Of a stretch of 64,000 bases of DNA, positions 19,461 to 62,297 are shown one piece after another. The stretch is from an uncultured archaeon. Lineage in GTDB: Archaea; Asgardarchaeota; Thorarchaeia; Thorarchaeales; Thorarchaeaceae. The stretch is taken from the NCBI GenBank assembly GCA_964473825.1, contig CAYYQL010000006.1, positions 47,367 to 111,366 on the forward strand. The letters are read 5' to 3'. The position numbers were made by a program, and so were the translations under genes. Position 1 is the first letter of the stretch. Every line of letters begins with the position of its first letter. Below the pieces are notes generated by a model. It was not told where the DNA came from, ran no database searches, and saw only the letters and a program-made list of their open reading frames with translations.

Positions 19461-19568
19461 GGGCCGATAGTCTAGCCCGGCTATGATACCGCATTGACAT
19501 AAGTCATTGATTTCCAATTTCTTTCAAAGGTGCGGTGGTCGCTGGTTCAAATCCGGCTCGGCCCACCA
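19461..19568 (+). tRNA. tRNA-Val(GAC) with 30-nt canonical intron (19500-19529)
   Basis: Acceptor GGGCCGA/TCGGCCC; CCGCA-TTGACA^G-TGCGG; BHB helix TTGA/TCAA; CCA. Confidence 0.93.
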
Positions 19569-30006: not shown

Positions 30007-30414
30007 ATGAAGAGAGTGTTGTTCCTCTGCACCGGTAATTCGGCACGCAGTCAGATGGCTGAGGCGCTTCTGCGCGAGCTGGGAAAGGAAGAGTACGAGG
30101 CATTCAGTGCCGGAACAGACATTCAGACAGAGGTCAATCCGTTCGCCATCCAGGTACTCAAAGAGATAGGCCTTAACACCGAGGGACTCCATCCAAAGAA
30201 ACTGGATCGCTTCAAGGGTGAAACATTCGACTTCGTCATTACTGTGTGCGATAATGCAAGACAGCAATGCCCCTTCTTTCCAGGAGCAAGAGAGATGCTC
30301 CACTGGTCACTTGAGGACCCCGCAGCATTCGAGGGGAGCCATGAAGAGATTCTCTTGATCTTTAGGGAGACCAGAGATGAGATTGAGAAGAGAATCAAGG
30401 GCACATTGCTCTAG
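30007..30414 (+). CDS. arsC: LMW-PTP-type arsenate reductase
   Basis: FLCTGNSARSQMAE, VCD..CP, HW.LEDP. Confidence 0.92.
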   Translation: MKRVLFLCTGNSARSQMAEALLRELGKEEYEAFSAGTDIQTEVNPFAIQVLKEIGLNTEGLHPKKLDRFKGETFDFVITVCDNARQQCPFFPGAREMLHWSLEDPAAFEGSHEEILLIFRETRDEIEKRIKGTLL

Positions 30415-32417
30415 TCTTCGACCCAATCAAACTTCCGCTGCAGGAGTTTGGTGTATATGTTTCTCCAGTCATAGTCGACCTTCTGACACCAGTTGTAGAC
30501 AATCTTCGGATGGATGTATGATTTGAGAGAAGTGCCAAGATTCCACGTTCGAGAATCTCGAGCCAGTGCCCAGTCAACCTCTATCTTCTTCTTGGCCAGT
30601 TCAGCCTTCTTGACACGTTCCTTCGCCCGTTCAACCATTTCCTTCCGTCGCTCGATTCGTTCGTTGCCATCTTCACGTGTGTCGATCAGAGACTGTTTCT
30701 TCTTCTCCAGTATCTCCTGACTTCTGCGATAGGTCTCTGTGTAGTCCTGCACACGCTTCTTTGCCTTTTCCCAACGCTCTCGCGTCCGGTCAATCTTGGC
30801 CTGTGCCTCTTCTAGGCGTTCTTGTTTGGTTCTCTTGCTCTTTCTTCGGCTCTCACGGATTGCGCGCTTCTCGGCACGGGCATTATCCCATGTCTCTTTT
30901 GCCTTGTCACGCTTCTCGCGATATTCCGCCATCTTCTCTTTGCGTTTCTCAACGACATCCTTTTGCTTCTCGATCAGCTCTCTCTTCTTCTTGAGTCGGT
31001 CCCGTTCTGTCTTACGCCGTTTCTTGAGGCGCTTCTTTTTGTCCGCAAGTGCTCTCTCTGCCTTGGCAATACGTTTGTCGGCCTTCTTCAGTCGTTCTTC
31101 AAAGCGTTTGTCGCGCCTTGGCCAACTCTTCGGCGCCTGTTTTGTATGATTCATAATGCGGGCTACTTCCAGATTGGCTCGTTTGGCTGCCGCCTTCTTG
31201 ATGAAATCCGGGTCCTTCTTTGATACTTTGCTCTCCTTGAGCTCCTCTCTCATAGTGACAGACGCATGGTACGTCCGGAACATCTTCGCGGTGAGATCTG
31301 GATACACCTCACTGAGGAACTGGTTCACATCGTGACTCCGGACCTTGGGAAAGATCTGGGCCATCTTCTTTGGGTCGGCCTTCGTCTTCTGGCGCTTTCG
31401 GGATTTGAATGAGGCCACCCAATCCTTGGCGTTATCGTACAGCTCACGAAAGACATTGTAGACATCATCAGGCGTTTTCAGTTCCTTATGCCAAGGAACA
31501 CTGTCTTTCCCCAAGAAGTCGAATATTATCAACCCGTTCTTGAAGGTGAGATGTTCCACACGTAAGGTTGTCGCGCCCACTGTGTCTGCCTCGTCCTTGT
31601 CCTTCTCATCTCCGACTCGCAGATTCAGACGATCAATCAGATAGCATGCAGCTGCGATCTCACGGACCTTTGCATCATCTGAGTGAAGGCCCCTCATGAT
31701 GTGCTCACGAACGTCTTCAATATGCTTCTCTAGCCTCAGAGCACTATCGAACTTCTCGGCCTCGCGTTCCTGTTTGATGGGCGTAGCATCATGGAGCCAG
31801 ATATACTTGTTCTTGCCGGTCAGCTCACTCTTCCATTTTGCGATCCAGAGACATTCAGGCTTCCAGACAATCTTCTTCCAGTTCCCCTCCGGACGAGGAG
31901 CATCGGGAGAGAGATTGAGTGTGATGTCCTCACATGTCGCAGCCTGCTTCCATCGGCCCCGAAGAGGATGCTCGCCTCTTCCCATGAATATCCCTGATGG
32001 CTCCGTCATGTAACTGGCTAGTTCCATCGTTTCTCCGTCAACCTCAGCATATCCGTACTCCTTCTTGAGGCGTTCCCGTTCAGCCTTTCGCTCCTCTCGC
32101 GCCCTCTTCTTCTCCTCTTTGGTCATGGCCTCCTTTGCTGCTCGCTCTTCTTCCACAAACTGTATCACTTGGGAGAAATCAACCTCGTCAAGAGAGAGCG
32201 GAGAGTTGAATCCGAGGACTTCACTTAAGTCAGTCATGAAGTTCTCAATGAACACGGGGTCTTCAACATAGGGCGTGCCCAGCTTCTTTACCCATGCCAC
32301 AGCCAACTCTTGCTGCCCCCTGGTCAGAACTATCTTTTCTCCTCGCACTTCAATTTCAAGACCTTCTGGCTCTGGTGCCTCTAAGATTAGTACTCCGTTG
32401 TGTTTCAGGCTGTCCAT
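30411..32417 (-). CDS. top1: Eukaryote-type DNA topoisomerase IB
   Basis: LKHNGV, GRGEHPLRG, LRVGDEKD, FLGKDS, KMFRTYHAS, NHTK, GTSLKSYIHP (catalytic Tyr); ATG at 32417 after GAGG. Confidence 0.95.
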   Translation of the reverse strand: MDSLKHNGVLILEAPEPEGLEIEVRGEKIVLTRGQQELAVAWVKKLGTPYVEDPVFIENFMTDLSEVLGFNSPLSLDEVDFSQVIQFVEEERAAKEAMTKEEKKRAREERKAERERLKKEYGYAEVDGETMELASYMTEPSGIFMGRGEHPLRGRWKQAATCEDITLNLSPDAPRPEGNWKKIVWKPECLWIAKWKSELTGKNKYIWLHDATPIKQEREAEKFDSALRLEKHIEDVREHIMRGLHSDDAKVREIAAACYLIDRLNLRVGDEKDKDEADTVGATTLRVEHLTFKNGLIIFDFLGKDSVPWHKELKTPDDVYNVFRELYDNAKDWVASFKSRKRQKTKADPKKMAQIFPKVRSHDVNQFLSEVYPDLTAKMFRTYHASVTMREELKESKVSKKDPDFIKKAAAKRANLEVARIMNHTKQAPKSWPRRDKRFEERLKKADKRIAKAERALADKKKRLKKRRKTERDRLKKKRELIEKQKDVVEKRKEKMAEYREKRDKAKETWDNARAEKRAIRESRRKSKRTKQERLEEAQAKIDRTRERWEKAKKRVQDYTETYRRSQEILEKKKQSLIDTREDGNERIERRKEMVERAKERVKKAELAKKKIEVDWALARDSRTWNLGTSLKSYIHPKIVYNWCQKVDYDWRNIYTKLLQRKFDWVED

Positions 32418-32580
32418 TAGTACATGAAACCTCATTCGATTCATTTCCAAGCTCAAGAATAGACGGGTGTAGTTCGCTTGTTCTTCTCGGCGAGAAGAGT
32501 GTGCCAAAAAAAAGATTGTGTTTAATTCATTGCAGAACTCGGATTCTTTGGCTAGAAGAAAAGCACAAAAAGGAGAGGAA

Positions 32581-32604
32581 GCCGAGTCTCGTGCAAGACT
32601 CGGC
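32581..32604 (-). terminator. GC-rich hairpin followed by a pyrimidine/T-rich tract on the minus strand
   Basis: Perfect 9-bp stem GCCGAGTCT/AGACTCGGC. Confidence 0.4.
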
Positions 32605-32949
32605 GGGGTTTTATTGGGCCTTTTGAGAAAAGGCGCTATTAGAACCAAGGCTCTATTAGATTCACCAAGGCTCTATCAGGACGGGGATTTCATCATCTGG
32701 ACCTGTCAAGTCATTTCACCTGAATATCATTCAGGGATGAGGGGTAGTGTACTGCACGTTCTGCTATCGAACGATTCGGAGAGAAAGGATAGGTTTATTC
32801 CAGAGAGAGCGGGGAGAGGGAGGCAAAGAGAGGGAGGAGATTATATCCGAACGCCCGGTACAGATTTGCCAAAAACAGCTAAGCAGACATAAGGAAAACC
32901 ATACGAGAGGAGAACTTCCGTGACATTGGAAGGAAATCAACCGAACTTC

Positions 32950-35900
32950 TCAGTGAAAGAAACCATCCAGAACCTCGAAGAACTCTTCCATGTTCACTAT
33001 GTGAAATCTAGTCCAGTTTCCCTCCTCCAATAGCTGCAGAATGCTATCTACTACCTCATCACCACTGACACCTCGTGGAAGCTCCCATGAAAGAGAGTCA
33101 AGAATCTCATCTGCCTCTCCAGCTCGTCTCACCTCCAAAGTGAGCGTCCTCCTCTGCAAGTCAGCCTCCAGTCGGGCGGGCATTTCTCCATCCCTCAGGC
33201 CCCGCTTCTCAAGTGCGCTTCTGATTCGAGTGCGCTGAGCTTCTGGATCATAGATCGATTCTTCCGGAATCTCTGACGTGATATTCCTCCAGAGATCATC
33301 TAAGACATCTGAGAGCTCTCGGACTACTTCCAATTCATAGGTGAATGAGCGGTTCTTCCAGTATTCACCCGTCAGACTAGATAGAGCTGTCCACTTGAGC
33401 CAGTCATCTCTGATGGTCAAAGATATCTCCCACCTCTGCTGCTCAGCTCGAAGATAGGTCCCAGTTTTCAGAGATGAAACCTTGAGTCCACTCTTCCGCA
33501 GAATCTTTCTAATGAGTGGGCTCTCGCGGAAGACCAAGCTCTCTCGCTGAAGGTCTGATGGAAGAATCACATTGACCGGGTGTATCTTGGAATCAAAGAC
33601 TATGCTCTCGGATCCGAGTCGGAGGATGATCTCTCTATCAGTGAAAAGGCCGCAGAAGACGTCCAACATTTCCTCATTCTCTCCCTCAAGAGTTGACTGC
33701 CAGCATCTGCCATGTTCCTTCCCCTCTCCCGAAGCCAGTGGACACTCGTTCTCGTTGTGGGATAGTCGAAAGCTGAGCTCCTTACCACAGGGGAGGGCGT
33801 GTAGGTCCGCTACTCTGGCCGGTAATCGGATATCGGCTGTTTCGGGAATGAAGGTTTCACTGACATTCGCCATGAGTGAGAGATCTCCATATTCGATGCC
33901 ACTAAACCGATCCCAGAAGACCATTTGCCCAGACGATAGTCTCACAGGTAGGCCCTTGCGAGTAAGGGTCAATGTATCGATGAGATTTGGCGTGAAGTGA
34001 TGCTCTATCATCTGCAGGGACTCATCATCTTCGTTCTTGATGTCCACTCTGCATCCCTCATCTGTCCATGACAGCTCCACTGACACATGTGTCTGCCCTT
34101 GAATCCGACTGAGGACACGTTCAATAGCCTTTTCGAGTCGATGAGATAGACTGGCTGGAACCAGGATATCAGTAGATCTTCGTGAGATTGGTTCTGAGAT
34201 AGGATCTTGTCTAGTGGCCCGGAGCATCGCGATTGAGCCCGTTGGTCTACCAGGGATGAAGTCGAACGAGCTCCTTAGAATCCAGTCTGACTCCTCTGTT
34301 TCTCTTGTCCAGAACAACCAATTCTCACTGTTTTGCTGGAGAGCCAGAGAGATGCGAGACCCTGTATCTATGAGTTCGCGGACACTGTCAGTGTGCTCTG
34401 AGATATCACTCTCAGCCCATTGCATCCCATCAGGACGGGTAGCCAGCCTTTTGTTGAAGAAGCCCACAAGGACTCTAGCAGGATTCCTCGGGTCTTCCAG
34501 TGCAACAATGCTGATTGGTTGATCAGGGTCCTCTGAGTAGACTATCTGACCAAAGCTGGCAATCCTGGGTTTGGGAGATTCAACAGTCTTAGGATAGGAG
34601 TCCCTCGCCTTGGACTTGTTCTGCTTGGGGCCACGATAGAGTCGGTGAGCATTAATCTGGCCGAGGAAGATATCGGCAAATGCCTTCTGCCTTTTTGTGC
34701 GAGGAGGACGATACATGAGCCTATGCAGTAGAGTGGGTACATCTGTCGGCTCACGGGAAAGAGAACGTCTTGTTATTGTCAGACCTTCCATAGACTCATG
34801 AAACTCATTGAAGAAGTCACGGAGAGCATCTGAGAAACTCACACCGGGTGAAACCTCTGTGTTGGGCCACAGGTCAGCCAACCAAGGAAGCAGGCTCATG
34901 GCCAGCGACCTGATCCGGTCTCGAACCCACGCCTTCGGTACAGCCTGTTCCTGTGGTTCAGGTATCTCTGTCTTGGCCCGATCATATTCTTCGGTTCTGA
35001 ACTTGGCAGTCCAGTGTCTGAGAACCGGGATGTGCAAAAGTGAGCTCTCAAACCCGAAGGACGACTGGGCCACCACGACTCTTATGTCATCAAACATGGG
35101 ACTTCGAGGAGCAGACTGACGGTGCCACGAGTCCGGGTCGATGACTCGTTCAGGCGCACATGGGAGGTTCCATATGATCTCATCCAGTTCACCCACAAGG
35201 GGAGAGGTATCACGCACAGGAATCAGGCAGTTGGTCGAGTAGATTGGAGTTCTTCTCTCATACTTCACCGGCCTGGAGAACCAGAGGATGGTTGTCTGTT
35301 CGTCATCGGATAATCGGTCTACCAGCTCCGCCAGCAAGCGGTTCATGCGGTCTCGATACAGTGAGGGCGTTGAGCTTTCAATCGCGTCCCACCCTGACAC
35401 AACTAGCAGACGGGGCTGTTTCACCTTGTCTTCCAACACCCGCGACAGGTCAATCATCGGGCCGCCATTGTAGAGATATGCCTGAATCTCAGCGAAGAGT
35501 GGTTTGAAATCTATGGAATGGAGGGTTTCCTGCACTGCATCTGACAGACCATTCTCGCCCGACCGCAGACGCGCCCTCAACCGAACCTCAGCAAGGGAGG
35601 TTGTGGAAAACTCGTCAGCCAAGTCAAGCCAGACAACACGGAGGTCAGGAGCGCCCTCTCGAAAGTCATGGATCATCTGCAGACCGTGATGATGTGCTGC
35701 AATCCAAGCAGCTGAGAGCCCTGCTGAGGTTGGAGATGCGGCGGCGATATAGAGAATGAAGCGTCGAGCACTGATGCCAGCACCGATCAGTGGGTCATAG
35801 GGCGGTTTCCATTCCGGTGGCACCGGCAACTCTCTGTAGTCTGGAGTGTGTTCTTGGTTGTGGACCACGAGGGCCATGCGCGGTCTCAGCCCATCCCTCG

Positions 35901-37533
35901 AAACCTCAAAGGCTATTCGTCGTCCAGACAGGTCTTCTGTCAGACATGACTCGAGCGCACTCAAGAGAAGCCCCCGTATCATTCGTCTGCTCTCTCTGCT
36001 CTCGTCGCTGGGGTCCATGACGAGTGTGGCACGAATCACCCTCGGAGGGCTCTCAAGATGAGCAATCGACCCAAAGACCTCAGACAGGGCCTCCGCATAA
36101 GCATCCAGCTGGGTAACGGTGTTCGGTTCAGGGGTGCCATCAACGACCTGTACCCACTCCTTAGGGCTGAGGGGCCGGAGAGAGAGCCTGAACCGTGGGA
36201 CCACCCGCTGGACCATCCCGTGCCGCTTCCGAGATGACGAAGGCCTTCGTTCAGGCTCCATATACCACTTGAACCCACAGCGGGTCTTGACCTCCACCAC
36301 CATCAGCGGACGCCAGAGGGTACGGAGACCTGTTGGTGCGGTCTCCCTTCTGAACACGACCAGGTCTGCCCTCCCCTTGCCCAGCGAGGTCCCCAGAGGT
36401 AGCTCTGCGACAATCCTGAGACCTCCTCCGGCCCCATCACGGTCATCGTCGCGGATGGCTCTCCGTACATCCAGAAACCGGTCGAATCTGTCCGTGATGC
36501 GCCTGTGGGCCTGGGCCCCCACCCTCTTCGTCCGTCGAACGGCACTCTGCCACAGGTGTTTCACATCATCACTGGTCAGGCGTGGTGCCTTCTTCTCGTG
36601 CTCGTCCGTCAGGACCTCGGACCCGCCTGACAGGATTCGGGCAAACTCCCCGGTCAGTACCGAATCCACCCCGGCCGCCTCCGCCTGCGCCAGCTGCTCC
36701 TCGAAGAAGTCCATGCTGAAACGGGGACGGGAATACGCCGCATGGGAGGACACGGTCTCAGGCTCACCCACCCGAACACCGTGGTGTGCCGCGATGTCAT
36801 CACGGATCTCCCGCAGCAGCCTGACCGTCCCATCCCTAAAGCCCGACGACCCATGCTCATGCTCGGTGTACAGGTGGTCGAGGTAGGTCCGTGCCCGCAG
36901 GATGAAGAGGTTGCTGTACCTCCGTGTGTCCCGCACCGACACATCGTGGATGTAGGCATCCGTGTTCAGGACCTGGATGTGCTGGCGCAGGGCGTCCATG
37001 AAGTCCAGCTCGGTGAGGAAGCGGTGGACAGGGGGATAGGCGGGGCAGCGTGCGTCGCCGGGATACCCCTGACCGATGTGCTCCCCGTTCTCGTTGAAGA
37101 GGGGCTGCGGCTGCCCCATGGGGTAGTAGATCGCCCCAGACTCCCGCAGAGCCGCGCCCCCAACGTTGAAGCGCTGGTTCAGGGGGCCCACATCCTCGTA
37201 CCACCGTCGCGCCCGCACGGTCTCGGTGCAGCCATAGAGGGCTGCGTTCTCCTCTAGCATGTCCAGACCATTCTTCCTGATGTTGTGCTCGGCCTTCATC
37301 ACGTGGCTGAAGTCCGGGGCACCCACCGCCCTCGAGATCTGGTAGGCCTCCGTGTACCGGTGCAGGATGTCACGGGAACTCTCGTACAGGTGGCGCGTGG
37401 TCGCGTTCCGAATCGTGCGCTGCAGGTACACAGCCGTGGACAGACCTGTCCTCATCGCCCGTGCCAGCACCCTGTTCGGATGCCTCGGGTACGGCCTCGC
37501 CCGCGGGCCACGGCTCCCTCTCATTCGCGCCAC
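32950..37533 (-). CDS. 1527-aa multidomain protein: PD-(D/E)XK (RecB-like) nuclease plus degenerate RecA/P-loop-like region
   Basis: E-LPL...GRADLVVF...VVEVKT...QLDAY; ASPTSAGLS and LLVVSGW at Walker A/B-like positions. Confidence 0.65.
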   Translation of the reverse strand: MARMRGSRGPRARPYPRHPNRVLARAMRTGLSTAVYLQRTIRNATTRHLYESSRDILHRYTEAYQISRAVGAPDFSHVMKAEHNIRKNGLDMLEENAALYGCTETVRARRWYEDVGPLNQRFNVGGAALRESGAIYYPMGQPQPLFNENGEHIGQGYPGDARCPAYPPVHRFLTELDFMDALRQHIQVLNTDAYIHDVSVRDTRRYSNLFILRARTYLDHLYTEHEHGSSGFRDGTVRLLREIRDDIAAHHGVRVGEPETVSSHAAYSRPRFSMDFFEEQLAQAEAAGVDSVLTGEFARILSGGSEVLTDEHEKKAPRLTSDDVKHLWQSAVRRTKRVGAQAHRRITDRFDRFLDVRRAIRDDDRDGAGGGLRIVAELPLGTSLGKGRADLVVFRRETAPTGLRTLWRPLMVVEVKTRCGFKWYMEPERRPSSSRKRHGMVQRVVPRFRLSLRPLSPKEWVQVVDGTPEPNTVTQLDAYAEALSEVFGSIAHLESPPRVIRATLVMDPSDESRESRRMIRGLLLSALESCLTEDLSGRRIAFEVSRDGLRPRMALVVHNQEHTPDYRELPVPPEWKPPYDPLIGAGISARRFILYIAAASPTSAGLSAAWIAAHHHGLQMIHDFREGAPDLRVVWLDLADEFSTTSLAEVRLRARLRSGENGLSDAVQETLHSIDFKPLFAEIQAYLYNGGPMIDLSRVLEDKVKQPRLLVVSGWDAIESSTPSLYRDRMNRLLAELVDRLSDDEQTTILWFSRPVKYERRTPIYSTNCLIPVRDTSPLVGELDEIIWNLPCAPERVIDPDSWHRQSAPRSPMFDDIRVVVAQSSFGFESSLLHIPVLRHWTAKFRTEEYDRAKTEIPEPQEQAVPKAWVRDRIRSLAMSLLPWLADLWPNTEVSPGVSFSDALRDFFNEFHESMEGLTITRRSLSREPTDVPTLLHRLMYRPPRTKRQKAFADIFLGQINAHRLYRGPKQNKSKARDSYPKTVESPKPRIASFGQIVYSEDPDQPISIVALEDPRNPARVLVGFFNKRLATRPDGMQWAESDISEHTDSVRELIDTGSRISLALQQNSENWLFWTRETEESDWILRSSFDFIPGRPTGSIAMLRATRQDPISEPISRRSTDILVPASLSHRLEKAIERVLSRIQGQTHVSVELSWTDEGCRVDIKNEDDESLQMIEHHFTPNLIDTLTLTRKGLPVRLSSGQMVFWDRFSGIEYGDLSLMANVSETFIPETADIRLPARVADLHALPCGKELSFRLSHNENECPLASGEGKEHGRCWQSTLEGENEEMLDVFCGLFTDREIILRLGSESIVFDSKIHPVNVILPSDLQRESLVFRESPLIRKILRKSGLKVSSLKTGTYLRAEQQRWEISLTIRDDWLKWTALSSLTGEYWKNRSFTYELEVVRELSDVLDDLWRNITSEIPEESIYDPEAQRTRIRSALEKRGLRDGEMPARLEADLQRRTLTLEVRRAGEADEILDSLSWELPRGVSGDEVVDSILQLLEEGNWTRFHIVNMEEFFEVLDGFFH

Positions 37534-37777
37534 TCTCTCTTCGTGCAGAAAACTATCGTATATGCTGTGACCATATCAAATGTTGGCTTAATATTTTTCG
37601 ATTGATATTTTCAGGCTTAGAGAACGAATAGACTAATTCAACTAGTTGTTTATTCAAATTGCTTCATAACTTTATATGCTTTCATACTTACTCATTGTAG
37701 GAGTTCAAAACGGCCCTGCAAGCACAAGGAGGCGAGTGAACTCCACTTAGTGGACTATCAGAACTTTATATGCGAAG

Positions 37778-39463
37778 ATGATGGCGATGGTCAAGTCCCA
37801 GGAACCAGTAATCACGGTCAAGATTCCCATCAACTGGGAGGAGATGACCGCGAGGGCACAGCAGCGACTGCGCCAGATGGTGGGACGTGACACCAGAGTC
37901 ATCCGAGCGTTCTTCGGGATCATCGAAGAGAACGAGGAACAGCTCTTGAGGGGGAGAAACAGGGACCGGATCGATGAGAACAAGCTGCATGCTATGACCA
38001 TGACTGCCCTGAAGGTGAGCAAGGGACAAGAAGAACGTCCTGAGGTAGAGCACGACCTGAAGGAGCAGTTCCCGAGAATATCAGCAAACGAGCTGAGTGA
38101 GTGCCGCAAGGTGGCTGTTGCGAATTACGAGAGTTACCTGGCCTTGAAGAGGAAGCGATGGCGGAAGGCGTCACGACCCAGTGAGGTGAATCGGAGCCAG
38201 CGGATACCGAGAAGAATCTTCATTCCGTATCGGGCTGAGCTGGTTCATCATAAGAGCACTGTGGCAACGTGGTGGCTGGAGCTGCGTGACTCCCTGGACT
38301 CGGTCCCTGAACGACGGCGGGTACATGATAGACTGACGGTGCCGCTGAAGACCTCCCCCTTTCACCTTGAGCAGCTGGACAGGGGAGATAAGAAGTCTGT
38401 GCAGGTGTTCACGGACAGACGGGGGAAGTGGTGGGCAGCGGTTGCTGTGCGATTGCCCGGGGTCGAGGCTGAGTCAGAATTGCCACCTGCAGTGTTGGGA
38501 ATCGATCTGGGAATCAACCGTGCGGTCTGTACGACGTTGGTGACGCCCTCAAAGGTCTCGGAGACCCGGTATTTTGTCCAAGAACATAAGGTCAGACTCA
38601 TGAAGAAGTATGATGACCGATTTGCCGACCTGCAGCGGGAACTTCAATTCTGTAAGGCTGACACGGAGCGGCACGATAACGTGGCTGCTAAACTCCGGAG
38701 CCTTCGCTCCAAGCGAGAACAGGTCTCCAAGGAGTACGACAGGCTAACCGTTAGCAGACTCATCTCGTATATCGAGGAGCTGTCACAGAAGTGGATGGTC
38801 TACGTGGCAATAGGCCGCGTCAAGGGCATCCGCAACACTGCTCGAAAGGGGAACTACAAGGGAAAGAAATTCAGAGGGATGGTGCATCGCTGGAGCTTCG
38901 GGCGGGTGACGCGCACGCTAAAACACGGGCTCGAGCAGCGAGGCTGGAGAACCGAGGGAAGGAAGAGCCGGTTTCATGTTGTCCCTGAGAACTGGACCTC
39001 CATCACCTGCTGGAAGTGCGGCCATCGAGGTGTTCGTCCCAAGCAGTCTCTGTTCATCTGCCATACTTGTGGGTTCAGAACGAACGCTGACAGAAACGGT
39101 TCCCTGAATATCGCGCGTCGATTGATCACGCTCATTCCGTCACTTACGAATGAGAACGGACTAGGGCGGTGGGCCACTCCTCAGCGGGAGCTCGGCTCAG
39201 CCCCGAAGGCTGTGAGGAAGACCCGTTCTTCTAAGCAGAAGTCCGAACTTGCTCGCAATGGCCCGGCATCAGGCCAGAGCAAGTCCGCGGTGGTTCGCCC
39301 CACTCAGATGAGTATCCTTGACTTTGGTGACGAAGTTGCGGGTGGCGATGATGATAGTGCCGTGGGAAGAGCTGTGGAAACACTCTCTGCTTCCAGCAAT
39401 GATGCGGCTGAGTTAAAGCAGGAGAAGGAAGCTCGGGTTACAGGAGGGACCGTGTCCCAATGA
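37778..39463 (+). CDS. tnpB: TnpB/Cas12f-like RuvC protein, copy 1, rearranged active site
   Basis: VLGIDLG (RuvC-I), VAIGRV (Gly at RuvC-II), VPENWTSITCWKCG..CHTCG zinc ribbon, NADRNGSLNI (RuvC-III). Confidence 0.85.
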   Translation: MMAMVKSQEPVITVKIPINWEEMTARAQQRLRQMVGRDTRVIRAFFGIIEENEEQLLRGRNRDRIDENKLHAMTMTALKVSKGQEERPEVEHDLKEQFPRISANELSECRKVAVANYESYLALKRKRWRKASRPSEVNRSQRIPRRIFIPYRAELVHHKSTVATWWLELRDSLDSVPERRRVHDRLTVPLKTSPFHLEQLDRGDKKSVQVFTDRRGKWWAAVAVRLPGVEAESELPPAVLGIDLGINRAVCTTLVTPSKVSETRYFVQEHKVRLMKKYDDRFADLQRELQFCKADTERHDNVAAKLRSLRSKREQVSKEYDRLTVSRLISYIEELSQKWMVYVAIGRVKGIRNTARKGNYKGKKFRGMVHRWSFGRVTRTLKHGLEQRGWRTEGRKSRFHVVPENWTSITCWKCGHRGVRPKQSLFICHTCGFRTNADRNGSLNIARRLITLIPSLTNENGLGRWATPQRELGSAPKAVRKTRSSKQKSELARNGPASGQSKSAVVRPTQMSILDFGDEVAGGDDDSAVGRAVETLSASSNDAAELKQEKEARVTGGTVSQ

Positions 39464-39568
39464 CGGTGGCCGAAGCTCTTGCTTGCTCTGGGGTGGCTCC
39501 CAGAAGTAGCGGTGACGCTGGGCAAGAGAAGAGCGGAACACAGAAGTCCAACCAGCGGAGTTCACTCA
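39305..39568 (+). ncRNA. Putative omegaRNA/reRNA scaffold of TnpB copy 1 (5' boundary approximate)
   Basis: Several stems covary with 41190-41453, including GNRA hairpin AGCG-GTGA-CGCT; overlaps the gene 3' end. Confidence 0.65.
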
Positions 39569-39683
39569 ACCCCAGCCATGGGAGTACACTTTGTCTTCTG
39601 AAGAGCAAAGCCATGCTTTTTCTCTTGCTGCAGTTGATCGATTCCGCAACTGGACTGTTAGTAAATAGGCTGAGGCGACGACG

Positions 39684-41795
39684 ATGGCGGCTGCTACGAA
39701 CCCTAGAATCGCGGTAAAGATACCGATTGCATGGGAGAGCATGTCGTCTTCTTCTCAGCAACACTTGGAACAGATAGTGGGTAGGGACTCCCGAGCAATC
39801 AAGAGGCTCCTGGGCATCATTGAACACAATGAGGATGATCTACTCTGTGGTAAGAGAAGGAACAAGGTGAGCCTGGGGCAACTCAACAGAATCACCATGA
39901 CTGCGACGAGGGGAAAGGCCAACCGGACCAAGGTCCCGCATGACCTGAAGGTTGACTTCCCGCGGGCCTGTGCCAGCGACCTCGCTGAGTGCGTCAAGAC
40001 AGCTGTCAGTCTGTACAACAGCTACCTTGCCCTCAGGCAGAAGAGGGGGTGGAGAGCGTCCCGACCCTGTAAGTCGAACTCCTCAGGACGTATCCCTCGA
40101 TGGATGTTTCATCCCAAGTCCTTCCGATTGGTTCAGCATGAGAACACGACTGCGCGGTGGTGGATGTCCCTGAGGGACTCGATGGACTCGAACCTTGAGG
40201 ACAGGTTGCGCCATGACAGGCTCATGATTCCCCTGAAGATGTCCCCCTTCCATGAGAACCAGCTCCAGCGCGGCGAGGTCAAGGCTGCACAGGTCTTCAC
40301 TGACCGGCTGGGAAAGTGGTGGGTCACGATATCCGTTCGTCTGGCTGAGACTCCAGAGGTCAGCGACGAGAACCCACCTGCTGTGCTAGGAATAGACCTG
40401 GGGATTGAGAAGGCTGTCTGTACCACTCTTGTCACCCCTGAGAAGGTGCGCGAAACGCGCTACTTCACACAGCAGAAGAAGGTCCGTCTTCTGAAGCAGT
40501 ATGATGACAGAGTCGCAAGTCTGCAGAGCGAGATGGACCTGAAAAAGGCTCGCGGCCAACGCTATGATGGTGTTGCAGAGAGACTGCGCTCTCTCAGAAC
40601 CAAGAGAGAGTCCGTGTCCAAGGAACACGATCGCGTCCTGCTCCGGGAACTGATCGACTACATCCTGGAGCTGAGTGAGAGGTATACACTCTTTGTCGCG
40701 ATTGGCAGGCTCAAGAACATCCGAAATAGTGCCAAACGCGGTGACTGGAAGGGCCGAAGGTTCAGGGGCATGGTCCATTCATGGGCCTTCGCTCGGATAA
40801 CCGAGGGACTTCGACGACAGCTCGGTCAGCTGGGTTGGCCTGTTCTGGGTAAGAAGTCGCGGGTCCACGCAGTCCCTGAGGCATGGACATCCATCATCTG
40901 TTGGAAGTGCGGGCAGAGAGGAACCAGACCCAGACAGAACCTCTTTGTCTGCTCCTGTGGAAACAAGTGCAATGCCGACAAGAACGGAGCCATCAACATC
41001 GCCGGACGCCTCATTACGCTCACAGAGTCACTCAATTCTGTGAGAGGACTAGGGAAGTGGGCTAGTGCAGCCTCTGCACGACGCACGCAACTGAAAGCCC
41101 GGAGGAAGACATCTTCCAAGGGGAGGTCCTCACTCTCAGGGCGCGATGCCTCATCTCATCGCGGAGAGTCCGCGGCTGTTCACTACGCTCAACCGAGCCT
41201 CCTCGACTTCGGTGACGAGGCTGAGGTGAGTGATGACGGTCCAGCCGTGGGAAGAAACGTGGAAAGACTCTCTACCGCTGGAACAGATGAACCAGCAGAA
41301 AAGGTAGGAGAAGGAAGCCAAGACAGGAAGAGAAGTGCCACTTCTATGATGCCTGACAAAGACTCCATCCCTCCCCGTCGCCAGACAGGGAATGGTGGCA
41401 ACACCGGGTGGAGAAAGGGTGGAACACGTAAGTCAACTAGAGAAGCCCACTCACTCATCAAGGGAGCCGCAACACCACTTCGAATGAATAGGAGAAGAGA
41501 AGCATGGATGGTGCGGCCACCGGGAATCGAACCCGGGCCCCATGCTTGGAAGGCATGGATCCTGACCACTAGACTATGGCCGCTTCACAGAGAGCTGACA
41601 GCCCATAGTCGATTTAAGGCTATTGCAGTGGCGCCGCGAGTTGACAGTCCGGGGAGTGGAAGGTGGATCCTTGCCTTGGAGGTCCGACACTCTTTCAGAC
41701 CATGCATCTGGCTGAAGGTCATACGAAGACCAGTTCATCATGTCGAGCAGAACAACAGATATCTGGAGGAGAAGCAGACAAGAGGAGCGCGCTGA
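39684..41795 (+). CDS. tnpB: TnpB/Cas12f-like RuvC protein, copy 2; homology to copy 1 ends near 41300 and the tail to 41795 follows a 1-nt insertion
   Basis: VLGIDLG, VAIGRL, VPEAWTSIICWKCG..CSCG, NADKNGAINI; collinear with copy 1. Confidence 0.82.
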   Translation: MAAATNPRIAVKIPIAWESMSSSSQQHLEQIVGRDSRAIKRLLGIIEHNEDDLLCGKRRNKVSLGQLNRITMTATRGKANRTKVPHDLKVDFPRACASDLAECVKTAVSLYNSYLALRQKRGWRASRPCKSNSSGRIPRWMFHPKSFRLVQHENTTARWWMSLRDSMDSNLEDRLRHDRLMIPLKMSPFHENQLQRGEVKAAQVFTDRLGKWWVTISVRLAETPEVSDENPPAVLGIDLGIEKAVCTTLVTPEKVRETRYFTQQKKVRLLKQYDDRVASLQSEMDLKKARGQRYDGVAERLRSLRTKRESVSKEHDRVLLRELIDYILELSERYTLFVAIGRLKNIRNSAKRGDWKGRRFRGMVHSWAFARITEGLRRQLGQLGWPVLGKKSRVHAVPEAWTSIICWKCGQRGTRPRQNLFVCSCGNKCNADKNGAINIAGRLITLTESLNSVRGLGKWASAASARRTQLKARRKTSSKGRSSLSGRDASSHRGESAAVHYAQPSLLDFGDEAEVSDDGPAVGRNVERLSTAGTDEPAEKVGEGSQDRKRSATSMMPDKDSIPPRRQTGNGGNTGWRKGGTRKSTREAHSLIKGAATPLRMNRRREAWMVRPPGIEPGPHAWKAWILTTRLWPLHRELTAHSRFKAIAVAPRVDSPGSGRWILALEVRHSFRPCIWLKVIRRPVHHVEQNNRYLEEKQTRGAR
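41190..41453 (+). ncRNA. Putative omegaRNA/reRNA scaffold of TnpB copy 2 (5' boundary approximate)
   Basis: Stems CTACC/GGTAG, AGAAGT/ACTTCT, CTCCATC/GGTGGAG and GGTG-GCAA-CACC match copy 1 positions with compensatory changes. Confidence 0.65.
41509..41583 (-). tRNA. tRNA-Gly(TCC), intronless
   Basis: GCGGCCATAGTCTAGTGGTCAGGATCCATGCCTTCCAAGCATGGGGCCCGGGTTCGATTCCCGGTGGCCGCACCA. Confidence 0.96.
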
Positions 41796-62189: not shown

Positions 62190-62297
62190 GGGCCCGTTGC
62201 CTAGTCCGGATAGGGCGCCAGCCTTCTAACGAACCTGCACTTCGCAGGCTGTGAGGGTAGTTGGAATTCGAGAGTTCAAGTCTCTCCGGGCCCGCCA
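62190..62297 (+). tRNA. tRNA-Arg(TCT) with 30-nt canonical intron (62229-62258)
   Basis: Acceptor GGGCCCG/CGGGCCC; CCAGC-CTTCTA^A-GTTGG; BHB helix CTTC/GAGG; CCA. Confidence 0.93.

What the first reader, a model, noticed from the sequence alone, without database searches (positions are those of the whole stretch)
39305..41453. Covariation between the two copies reveals a ~250-nt omegaRNA-like scaffold overlapping each TnpB 3' end
Seen by hand alignment of 39305-39568 with 41190-41453; the sequence diverges but pairing is kept. Stem 1: CTGCT/AGCAG (39387/39417) vs CTACC/GGTAG (41272/41303). Stem 2: GGGAC-CGT-GTCCC (39446-58) vs AGAAGT-GCC-ACTTCT (41331-45). Stem 3: CTCTTGC/GCAAGAG (39476/39522) vs CTCCATC/GGTGGAG (41363/41407). 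Stem 3 encloses two hairpins, one with a GNRA loop: AGCG-GTGA-CGCT vs GGTG-GCAA-CACC. Terminal stem: GAGCGG/TCACTC vs GGGTGG/CCACTC. Conserved GACTT (39320; 41205) is complementary to conserved AAGTC (39544; 41430), a possible pseudoknot. Similarity ends after CACTCA. Inference: candidate guides start near 39569 (ACCCCAGCCATGGGAGTACA) and 41454 (CTCATCAAGGGAGCCGCAAC).
Basis: partly seen in the sequence, partly recalled or inferred. Interest (0 to 1): 0.85.

Follow-up and report, generated by a model that had tools for sequence, protein, structure and literature searches.

The report
Large TnpB guide-RNA scaffold in Thorarchaeota

Summary
Across 61 homologous 3' regions, an 89-pair structure is 96% canonical. 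61 pairs show compensatory changes, against 32 in shuffles and 25-29 in slid controls. G.U outnumbers A.C ten to one, so the fold belongs to the sense strand. Between the two window copies, 25 pairs are compensated.

- The element is about 410 nt, not 250 (39157-39568 and 41045-41453).
- It starts where third-codon-position constraint appears and where AlphaFold2 predicts a disordered tail.
- In most family members the element continues 20-25 nt past CACTCA and pairs back into an internal loop. A guide starting at 39569 or 41454 is therefore doubtful.

I read it as a new member of the TnpB omegaRNA kind. The motif was found in one Asgard family (45 of 76 genomes), in many copies, with RNA-only derivative elements. 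A 2023 survey already noted its GTTCACTCA motif. No RNA data could be obtained.

The parts
37778..39463 (+). tnpB copy 1 (561 aa). Most homologues start at the position of the third ATG, 37787.
   Evidence: Pfam Cas12f1-like_TNB 1.3e-11 and NCBIfam guided_TnpB 2.6e-24. D243, E404 and D438 are invariant; the canonical RuvC-II Glu position is an invariant Gly346.
39684..41795 (+). tnpB copy 2 open frame. The homologous part ends near 41349. A 1-nt insertion near 41298 shifts the last ~16 codons and removes the family stop, so the frame runs on through the tRNA gene.
   Evidence: 55% identical to copy 1. The frameshift is seen and in column 352 of A3.
39157..39568 (+). RNA scaffold of copy 1 (412 nt). 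307 nt overlap the ORF and 105 nt lie beyond the stop codon.
   Evidence: Covariation. The 5' limit rests on the codon-position entropy shift, helix P1, and the junction point of the RNA-only elements.
41045..41453 (+). RNA scaffold of copy 2 (409 nt).
   Evidence: Same alignment and structure; 25 pairs are compensated relative to copy 1.
39267..39404 (+). Kissing-loop pseudoknot of copy 1: 39267-39271 pairs with 39400-39404 (41152-41156 with 41285-41289 in copy 2). It joins the loops of helices P2 and P6.
   Evidence: 5 pairs, 97% paired, 3 pairs with changes on both sides, 3 pair types at the end position.
39372..39543 (+). Long-range helix P5 of copy 1: 39372-39376 pairs with 39539-39543 (41257-41261 with 41425-41429 in copy 2). 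It encloses helices P6 to P9.
   Evidence: 100% paired; all 5 pairs show a change on both sides in some sequence, including between the two window copies.
39316..39341 (+). GNRA-capped hairpin P4b (41201-41226 in copy 2). It encodes the FGDE/FSDE peptide motif of the tail.
   Evidence: 10 pairs, 9 with changes on both sides. The closing pair is G-C in 32 sequences and A-U in 29.
39476..39528 (+).
   Evidence: 9 pairs, 8 with changes on both sides. The variable hairpin folds with at least 4 bp in 61 of 61 sequences, mean z -3.9.
39544..39568 (+). Unstructured 3' stretch: a variable 8-14 nt linker followed by the near-invariant GTTCACTCA motif.
   Evidence: No consistent fold, mean z -0.17. The motif is conserved in 61 sequences.
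37734..37756 (+). Leader segment that is the inverted repeat of 39545-39567 (19 of 23 positions).
   Evidence: Found in nearly all homologues about 55-70 nt upstream of the conserved N-terminal codons (some 30-45 nt before the start codon); z up to 7 against shuffles.
41509..41583 (-). tRNA-Gly(TCC), convergent with copy 2, 55 nt after CACTCA.
   Evidence: ARAGORN and Rfam. Six other Thorarchaeota genomes have the same neighbour.

Best explanation
Each interval encodes the scaffold of the guide RNA (omegaRNA / reRNA) of the TnpB gene it overlaps.

Shown:
- A sense-strand fold of about 410 nt with 17 helices. It has two long-range helices and a loop-loop pseudoknot.
- The fold is conserved by compensatory change in a TnpB family found in one family of Asgard archaea.
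- It overlaps about 100 codons that encode a tail predicted to be disordered.

Inferred:
- The RNA is cut out of the tnpB transcript and bound by TnpB, as in characterised TnpB systems.
- The 3' end of the scaffold presents a guide copied from the DNA next to the element.
- In mobile members the scaffold runs 20-25 nt beyond CACTCA. Its last 5-6 nt pair with an internal loop (consensus ATGACC), and the guide would follow that.
- The two window copies have lost this terminal block and the conserved end motifs. They look like old, immobile insertions beside tRNA-Gly whose RNA fold is still under selection. Where their guide starts is open.
For: 1. Covariation: 61 of 89 pairs compensated, against 32 in shuffles and 25-29 when slid; 476 compensated cells against 127. 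RNAalifold independently found 57 of 82 pairs compensated.
2. Strand: 496 G.U cells against 50 A.C cells.
3. The constraint is on nucleotides, not protein. Third-position entropy is 1.1-1.7 bits up to residue ~447 and falls to 0.6-1.2 bits from ~457 on, equal to positions 1 and 2. The same conserved bases are read in two frames in copy 1 and copy 2. Conservation continues 105 nt past the stop. Residues 471-561 have pLDDT 22-35.
4. The partner is a TnpB with the rearranged RuvC-II site described in PMC10691335.
5. RNA-only derivatives keep exactly this block: full scaffolds on three contigs, matching left-end pieces on four more. The similarity of the three full copies ends 20 nt after CACTCA.
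6. Terminal pairing: 45 of 64 sequences have a perfect 5-bp partner, against 8.0 +/- 2.6 for shuffled pentamers, with three independent double changes.
7. Flanks of paralogues diverge right after that block.
Against:
- No Rfam family matches.
- The folding energy of copy 1 alone is ordinary.
- Copies 1 and 2 lack the terminal pairing block and the repeated end motif. Copy 2 also lacks the leader repeat. Their guide cannot be placed.
- No IS200/IS605 TnpA is nearby.
- RNA-only copies are flanked by 5-6 nt direct repeats, and tnpB by an inverted repeat. These features are unlike IS200/IS605.
- About 410-435 nt is longer than characterised omegaRNA scaffolds.
Confidence: 0.75

Rival explanations
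1. The fold is a cis-acting part of the tnpB mRNA. It would control stability, translation or termination, or form a processing platform, and it carries no guide.
For: It overlaps the ORF and its 3' UTR. The window copies have no recognisable guide-adjacent block. Candidate guides have no clear target.
Against: RNA-only elements that have lost the tnpB body keep the whole fold and have spread to several sites. A 17-helix fold with a kissing loop is far more than mRNA 3' ends usually need. Characterised TnpBs all use an RNA in this position (established knowledge).
Confidence: 0.1
2. The guide-like part is the variable linker plus GTTCACTCA, as PMC10691335 suggested for Asgard TnpB. Alternatively, this 3' end pairs with the inverted copy in the tnpB leader, either as a tracr-like duplex or as self-targeting of the divergent promoter.
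For: The linker is unstructured and variable. A 23-nt inverted copy sits in the leader of nearly every homologue. Three lineages changed the 8-nt core at both ends together (L009, L027/L030, L047).
Against: The linker is only 8-14 nt, and many copies have 8. Within the main clade it is fairly conserved. About eight core variants are uncompensated, and the mismatches in copy 1 are not wobble pairs. Copy 2 has no such leader repeat.
Confidence: 0.1
3. The structure forms in single-stranded DNA as a transposon right end recognised by a transposase. It is not an RNA.
For: IS200/IS605 ends act as folded single strands (established knowledge). The block lies at the right end of the mobile copies.
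Against: Known end hairpins are tens of nt, not 410 nt with 17 helices. The fold has GNRA loops and a loop-loop helix. Wobble-compatible cells outnumber A.C ten to one. The fold is still conserved in the two copies that have lost the end motifs.
Confidence: 0.04
4. The conservation reflects a functional C-terminal protein tail, and the pairings are incidental.
For: The frame stays open for about 100 codons in over 100 homologues. Gaps inside the ORF part are multiples of three. Another first-stage note saw a PIP-box-like motif.
Against: Codon periodicity is lost. Copy 2 is frameshifted yet keeps its helices. Conservation runs past the stop. The tail is predicted disordered. The FGDE/FSDE alternation is exactly a G-C to A-U swap in a helix.
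Confidence: 0.02

Closest known systems
TnpB omegaRNA / reRNA of IS200/IS605 elements, e.g. ISDra2 (established knowledge: Karvelis 2021, Altae-Tran 2021, and the 2023 structures)
   Same: Same strand as tnpB. It overlaps the ORF 3' end and extends into the right end of the element. It is a conserved multi-helix fold with a pseudoknot that involves the guide-proximal 3' end. Non-autonomous derivatives keep the RNA.
   Different: It is about 410-435 nt, against roughly 130-250 nt. About 300 nt of it are also coding. No TnpA is nearby. tnpB is flanked by an inverted repeat and the RNA-only copies by short direct repeats. The nuclease has the relocated RuvC-II glutamate.
Asgard aCas1-linked TnpB groups (Cas1H-Asgard-1/2) in Altae-Tran et al. 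2023, PMC10691335
   Same: The hosts are Asgard archaea. The same conserved GTTCACTCA motif lies downstream of tnpB, preceded by a variable stretch after a conserved T.
   Different: No Cas1 gene is adjacent here. The recurrent neighbour is a 1527-aa protein whose middle region models as a RecA/Rad51-like fold, not Cas1. That paper proposed the variable stretch as the guide and, in the passages I read, described no secondary structure. Here the stretch is 8-14 nt and lies inside a much larger fold.
Fanzor omegaRNA (fRNA) of eukaryotic TnpB relatives (established knowledge: Saito 2023)
   Same: A large guide RNA overlaps the ORF 3' end. The RuvC-II glutamate is rearranged. The elements can have terminal inverted repeats.
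   Different: The host is prokaryotic. PMC10691335 links eukaryotic relatives to IS630-associated TnpBs, not to this clade.
Type V CRISPR crRNA/tracrRNA
   Same: PMC10691335 notes that GTTCACTCA resembles the 5' end of a CRISPR repeat. An anti-repeat-like copy sits upstream of the nuclease gene.
   Different: There is no repeat-spacer array at the locus: the motif occurs once per copy. The scaffold is continuous with the gene.

Membership tests
TnpB omegaRNA (OMEGA guide RNA) | Encoded on the tnpB strand, overlapping the ORF 3' end and continuing beyond the stop | tested here: met
   The scaffold is 39157-39568 and the stop is at 39461-39463. Copy 2 and 59 homologues show the same arrangement.
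TnpB omegaRNA (OMEGA guide RNA) | Conserved secondary structure supported by covariation, including a pseudoknot | tested here: met
   The kissing loop is columns 206-210 with 339-343.
TnpB omegaRNA (OMEGA guide RNA) | The scaffold ends at the element's right boundary, and the guide is the adjacent flanking DNA | tested here: inconclusive
   Mobile paralogues and RNA-only copies diverge right after the terminal block, 20-25 nt past CACTCA. The two window copies lack that block.
TnpB omegaRNA (OMEGA guide RNA) | The RNA exists, is bound by TnpB, and directs TAM-dependent DNA cleavage | not testable with these tools
TnpB omegaRNA (OMEGA guide RNA) | The partner protein is a TnpB with a RuvC active site | tested here: met
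   The Asp, Glu and Asp residues are invariant, with the Glu relocated. PMC10691335 predicts this class to be active.
IS200/IS605 transposon | Y1 TnpA in cis or in trans, subterminal hairpins, no terminal inverted repeats, no target duplication | tested here: not met
   No TnpA is in the window. An inverted repeat flanks tnpB. Direct repeats of 5-6 nt flank the RNA-only copies. TnpA elsewhere in the genome was not searched.
Asgard aCas1-linked TnpB (PMC10691335) | GTTCACTCA motif preceded by a variable stretch downstream of tnpB | tested here: met
Asgard aCas1-linked TnpB (PMC10691335) | Adjacent Asgard Cas1 homologue | tested here: not met
   There is no Cas1 in the window. The conserved neighbour shows no Cas1 similarity. 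The neighbour was tested over residues 450-800 only.
Rfam families | Match to a curated covariance model | tested here: not met
   Only tRNA matched, at gathering score and at E up to 1.

The most novel reading that the evidence does not exclude
The tnpB-plus-RNA cassette may not be an IS200/IS605 element. Three features point that way:
- It is bounded by a ~23-nt inverted repeat whose right arm is the 3' end of the guide RNA itself.
- It usually sits head to head with a giant protein that carries a nuclease-like motif and a RecA-like fold.
- It spawns RNA-only copies flanked by short direct repeats.

This could be a new kind of Asgard mobile or defence module. In one version the guide RNA's 3' end recognises the cassette's own leader, for autoregulation or homing. 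In another, the dispersed RNA-only copies act as a library of guides for the few resident TnpBs.
Probability: 0.12. Interest if true: 0.8.

Novelty: new member of a known kind. Interest (0 to 1): 0.5.

Why it matters
It gives a tested structural model and exact boundaries for the guide RNA of a TnpB family that is abundant in one family of Asgard archaea. A 2023 survey left this family's non-coding part as an open question. The model tells experimenters which ~410-435 nt to co-express and where the guide is likely to sit, and so where it is not. It also shows that the conserved C-terminal 'tail' of these proteins is largely a by-product of RNA constraint, which is a warning for motif hunting in TnpB and Fanzor tails. 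Finally, the RNA-only elements, the leader inverted repeat and the giant conserved neighbour are leads on how such elements move and are controlled in the closest prokaryotic relatives of eukaryotes.

Tried and rejected
- Rfam: nothing but tRNA at gathering score or at E up to 1.
- Single-sequence folding z-scores do not separate sense from antisense.
- A hairpin upstream of the scaffold (about 39131-39155) is in a different register in the two subfamilies and is absent from the RNA-only copies, so I left it out.
- A small hairpin in the linker before GTTCACTCA shows no consistent fold.
The first has no covariation. The second is weak and competes with a better-supported helix.
- Candidate guides were compared with the host genome. 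Only one 17-nt exact match appeared, to a gene on another contig. It starts 16 nt after CACTCA of copy 2 and may be chance (about 0.01-0.05 expected).
- The repeated end motif of the mobile copies is not enriched near the window genes.
- The idea that the giant neighbour is the 'aCas1' of the literature found no support. Pfam, NCBIfam and PDB searches found no significant match, BLAST against the genome's own Cas1 gave E = 0.13, and the model of residues 450-800 resembles RecA/Rad51 weakly, TM about 0.3. The Atlas look-up gave nothing.


Full report
**What is there.** The window comes from a Thorarchaeota (Asgard) genome; the closest records are Thorarchaeota MAGs. It holds two tandem genes for TnpB-like RNA-guided nucleases: 37778-39463 (561 aa) and an open frame from 39684. 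The two proteins are 55% identical. A tRNA-Gly(TCC) gene lies convergently just behind copy 2. In a 26-sequence alignment the RuvC Asp residues and a Glu at position 404 are invariant, while the canonical RuvC-II Glu position is an invariant Gly. PMC10691335 describes this rearranged class and predicts it to be active.

**Check of the observation.** DNA similarity between the copies runs about 105 nt past the stop of copy 1 and ends after CACTCA. The only slip is a C.A mismatch in the 'terminal stem' of copy 1.

**Family evidence.**
- The protein has over 600 relatives, nearly all 555-562 aa and from Thorarchaeota.
- I took 79 loci from genome records and aligned 61 of the 3' regions (A3).
- RNAalifold predicted 82 pairs, 57 of them with compensatory change.
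- I curated this to 89 pairs in 17 helices, adding a loop-loop helix found by a column-pair scan.
- The count gave 96.3% canonical cells, against 88.8% in shuffles and 40-45% when partners are slid.
- 61 pairs have changes on both sides, against 32.2 +/- 2.7 in shuffles and 25-29 slid.
- 476 cells are compensated, against 127 in shuffles and 52-90 slid. No shuffle in 500 reaches the observed value on any measure.
- G.U cells outnumber A.C cells 496 to 50, so the fold belongs to the sense strand.
- Between the two window copies, 25 pairs are compensated.

**It is RNA-level, not protein-level, conservation.**
- Third-codon-position entropy is 1.1-1.7 bits along the gene body. From residue ~457 it drops to 0.6-1.2 bits, the same as positions 1 and 2.
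- Copy 2 carries a 1-nt insertion in a loop (near 41298). The conserved bases downstream are therefore read in another frame and the family stop is lost, yet its helices are kept.
- AlphaFold2 gives pLDDT 22-35 and no secondary structure for residues 471-561.
- The peptide alternation FGDE/FSDE is exactly a G-C to A-U swap in helix P4b.
- The frame does stay open, and gaps in that part are multiples of three. The region is therefore dual-coding, with the RNA dominating.

**Boundaries.** Three lines of evidence place the 5' end at 39157 / 41045:
- the entropy shift;
- the first helix, P1;
- the point where three RNA-only elements in the same genome join a ~125-nt left end to the scaffold.

The element is thus about 410 nt, not 250.

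Stems 1, 2 and 3 and the GNRA hairpin are confirmed. The other enclosed hairpin folds in 61 of 61 sequences despite free sequence variation.

The terminal stem shows no covariation and has 20 C.A cells. Three of its bases pair better with columns 371-373, where 99.5% of cells are paired and two pairs have compensated variants.

The GACTT/AAGTC pseudoknot has weak statistical support. It would have to unzip a 10-pair GNRA hairpin in which 9 pairs covary.

- the P1-P4 domain upstream of 39305;
- long-range helix P5 (39372-76 with 39539-43);
- helix P7;
- the kissing loop (39267-71 with 39400-04).

**The 3' end and the guide.**
- After CACTCA, most homologues have a 3-8 nt linker and then a semi-conserved block. 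Paralogues within one genome diverge only after that block.
- The three RNA-only copies stay alike for 20 nt past CACTCA.
- The last 5-6 nt of the block are complementary to an internal loop between P4 and P3. 45 of 64 sequences have a perfect 5-bp partner, against 8.0 +/- 2.6 for shuffled pentamers.
- Three independent lineages changed both sides of that pairing together.
- By analogy with characterised omegaRNAs, the guide would follow this block.
- The variable stretch just before GTTCACTCA, which PMC10691335 proposed as a possible guide, is unstructured. It is only 8-14 nt long.

**Context.**
- The scaffold's 3' motif occurs in 45 of 76 sampled genomes of the window's own family, with up to 28 copies per genome. 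In 224 genomes of other families of the phylum it gives only 10 genomes with hits, mostly single, close to the control rate.
- This genome also holds about nine ~200-nt elements that share the last ~100 nt of the scaffold.
- Further RNA-only copies lie on other contigs.
- A TnpB beside tRNA-Gly(TCC) recurs in six other genomes. The window copies lack the end motifs of the mobile members.
- I therefore read copies 1 and 2 as old, fixed insertions whose RNA is still under selection.

**Unexplained features that bear on mechanism.**
- Nearly every homologue has, shortly upstream of the tnpB start codon (about 55-70 nt before the conserved N-terminal codons), an inverted copy of the scaffold's last ~23 nt. 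In copy 1 this is 37734-37756 against 39545-39567, matching at 19 of 23 positions.
- Core variants are compensated in three lineages and not in about eight. This favours a DNA-level inverted repeat over an RNA duplex.
- 38 of 57 loci carry a homologue of the 1527-aa gene at 32950-37533 head to head with tnpB.
- That protein has no family match. By eye it carries a PD-(D/E)XK-like motif. Residues 450-800 model as a RecA/Rad51-like fold.
- It is not detectably Cas1.

**Verdict.** The finding is real and is most likely the omegaRNA scaffold of a TnpB family found here only in one Asgard family. It is a new member of a known kind. It is unusually large and partly anticipated by the motif noted in PMC10691335. 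The position of the guide and the existence of the RNA remain to be shown by experiment.

Noticed in passing
window 32950-37533 (-): A 1527-aa protein with no Pfam, NCBIfam or PDB sequence match sits head to head with tnpB. Homologues occupy the same position in 38 of 57 related loci and are multi-copy in five genomes, also without tnpB. It has a PD-(D/E)XK-like motif near residues 395-420, and residues 450-800 model as a weak RecA/Rad51-like fold.
   Followed up: partly
window 37600-37790: The tnpB leader has a conserved architecture across the family: a conserved 15-mer, a variable hairpin, the inverted copy of the RNA 3' end, a 6-bp hairpin, then a TATA-like box. The 12 nt before the TATA-like box recur in direct orientation at the right end of mobile copies.
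   Followed up: partly
own genome contigs C19:4805-5400, C102:1426-2000, C12:26435-26990, plus C48, C84, C76 and the end of C3: RNA-only elements of about 570 nt: a ~125-nt left end joined to the full scaffold. Full copies on C19, C102 and C12 are about 90% alike; matching left-end pieces are on C48, C84, C76 and C3. C19 and C12 are flanked by matching 5-6 nt direct repeats (imperfect in C102). The C19 copy sits between cas4 and the next gene of an ordinary CRISPR-cas locus with 36 repeats.
   Followed up: partly
own genome C2:111702-111876 and 113988-114151, C3:118027-118219, C2:181076-181225, C18, C82, C6:986-1132: About nine ~200-nt MITE-like elements carry only the last ~100 nt of the scaffold plus a left end with repeated 7-nt motifs. 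They lie between ordinary host genes.
   Followed up: partly
window 41469-41485 vs own genome C3:60071-60087: There is an exact 17-nt match between the flank of copy 2, starting 16 nt after CACTCA, and the inside of a large Fe-S oxidoreductase-like gene. It may be chance (about 0.01-0.05 expected) or a guide-target pair.
   Followed up: partly
window 41509-41583 and loci L008, L009, L010, L012, L026, L044: A TnpB of this family lies 17-55 nt from the 3' end of tRNA-Gly(TCC) in seven genomes. Protein identity to copy 1 in the six other genomes ranges from 54% to 91%. Several other copies abut tRNA genes or tRNA fragments.
   Followed up: partly
window 39305-39345 and 41190-41230: The Q..L..FGDE peptide motif of the tail, read elsewhere in this scan as PIP-box-like, is encoded by helices P4a and P4b. 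Its variation tracks RNA base-pair swaps, so its conservation may be an RNA by-product.
   Followed up: partly
window 30411-32648 (-): A eukaryote-type DNA topoisomerase IB (Pfam Topoisom_I 5e-59 plus the N- and C-terminal domains).
   Followed up: no
window 19461-19565 and 62190-62294 (+): Two 105-nt tRNA matches in Rfam that ARAGORN missed; they are probably intron-containing tRNA genes.
   Followed up: no
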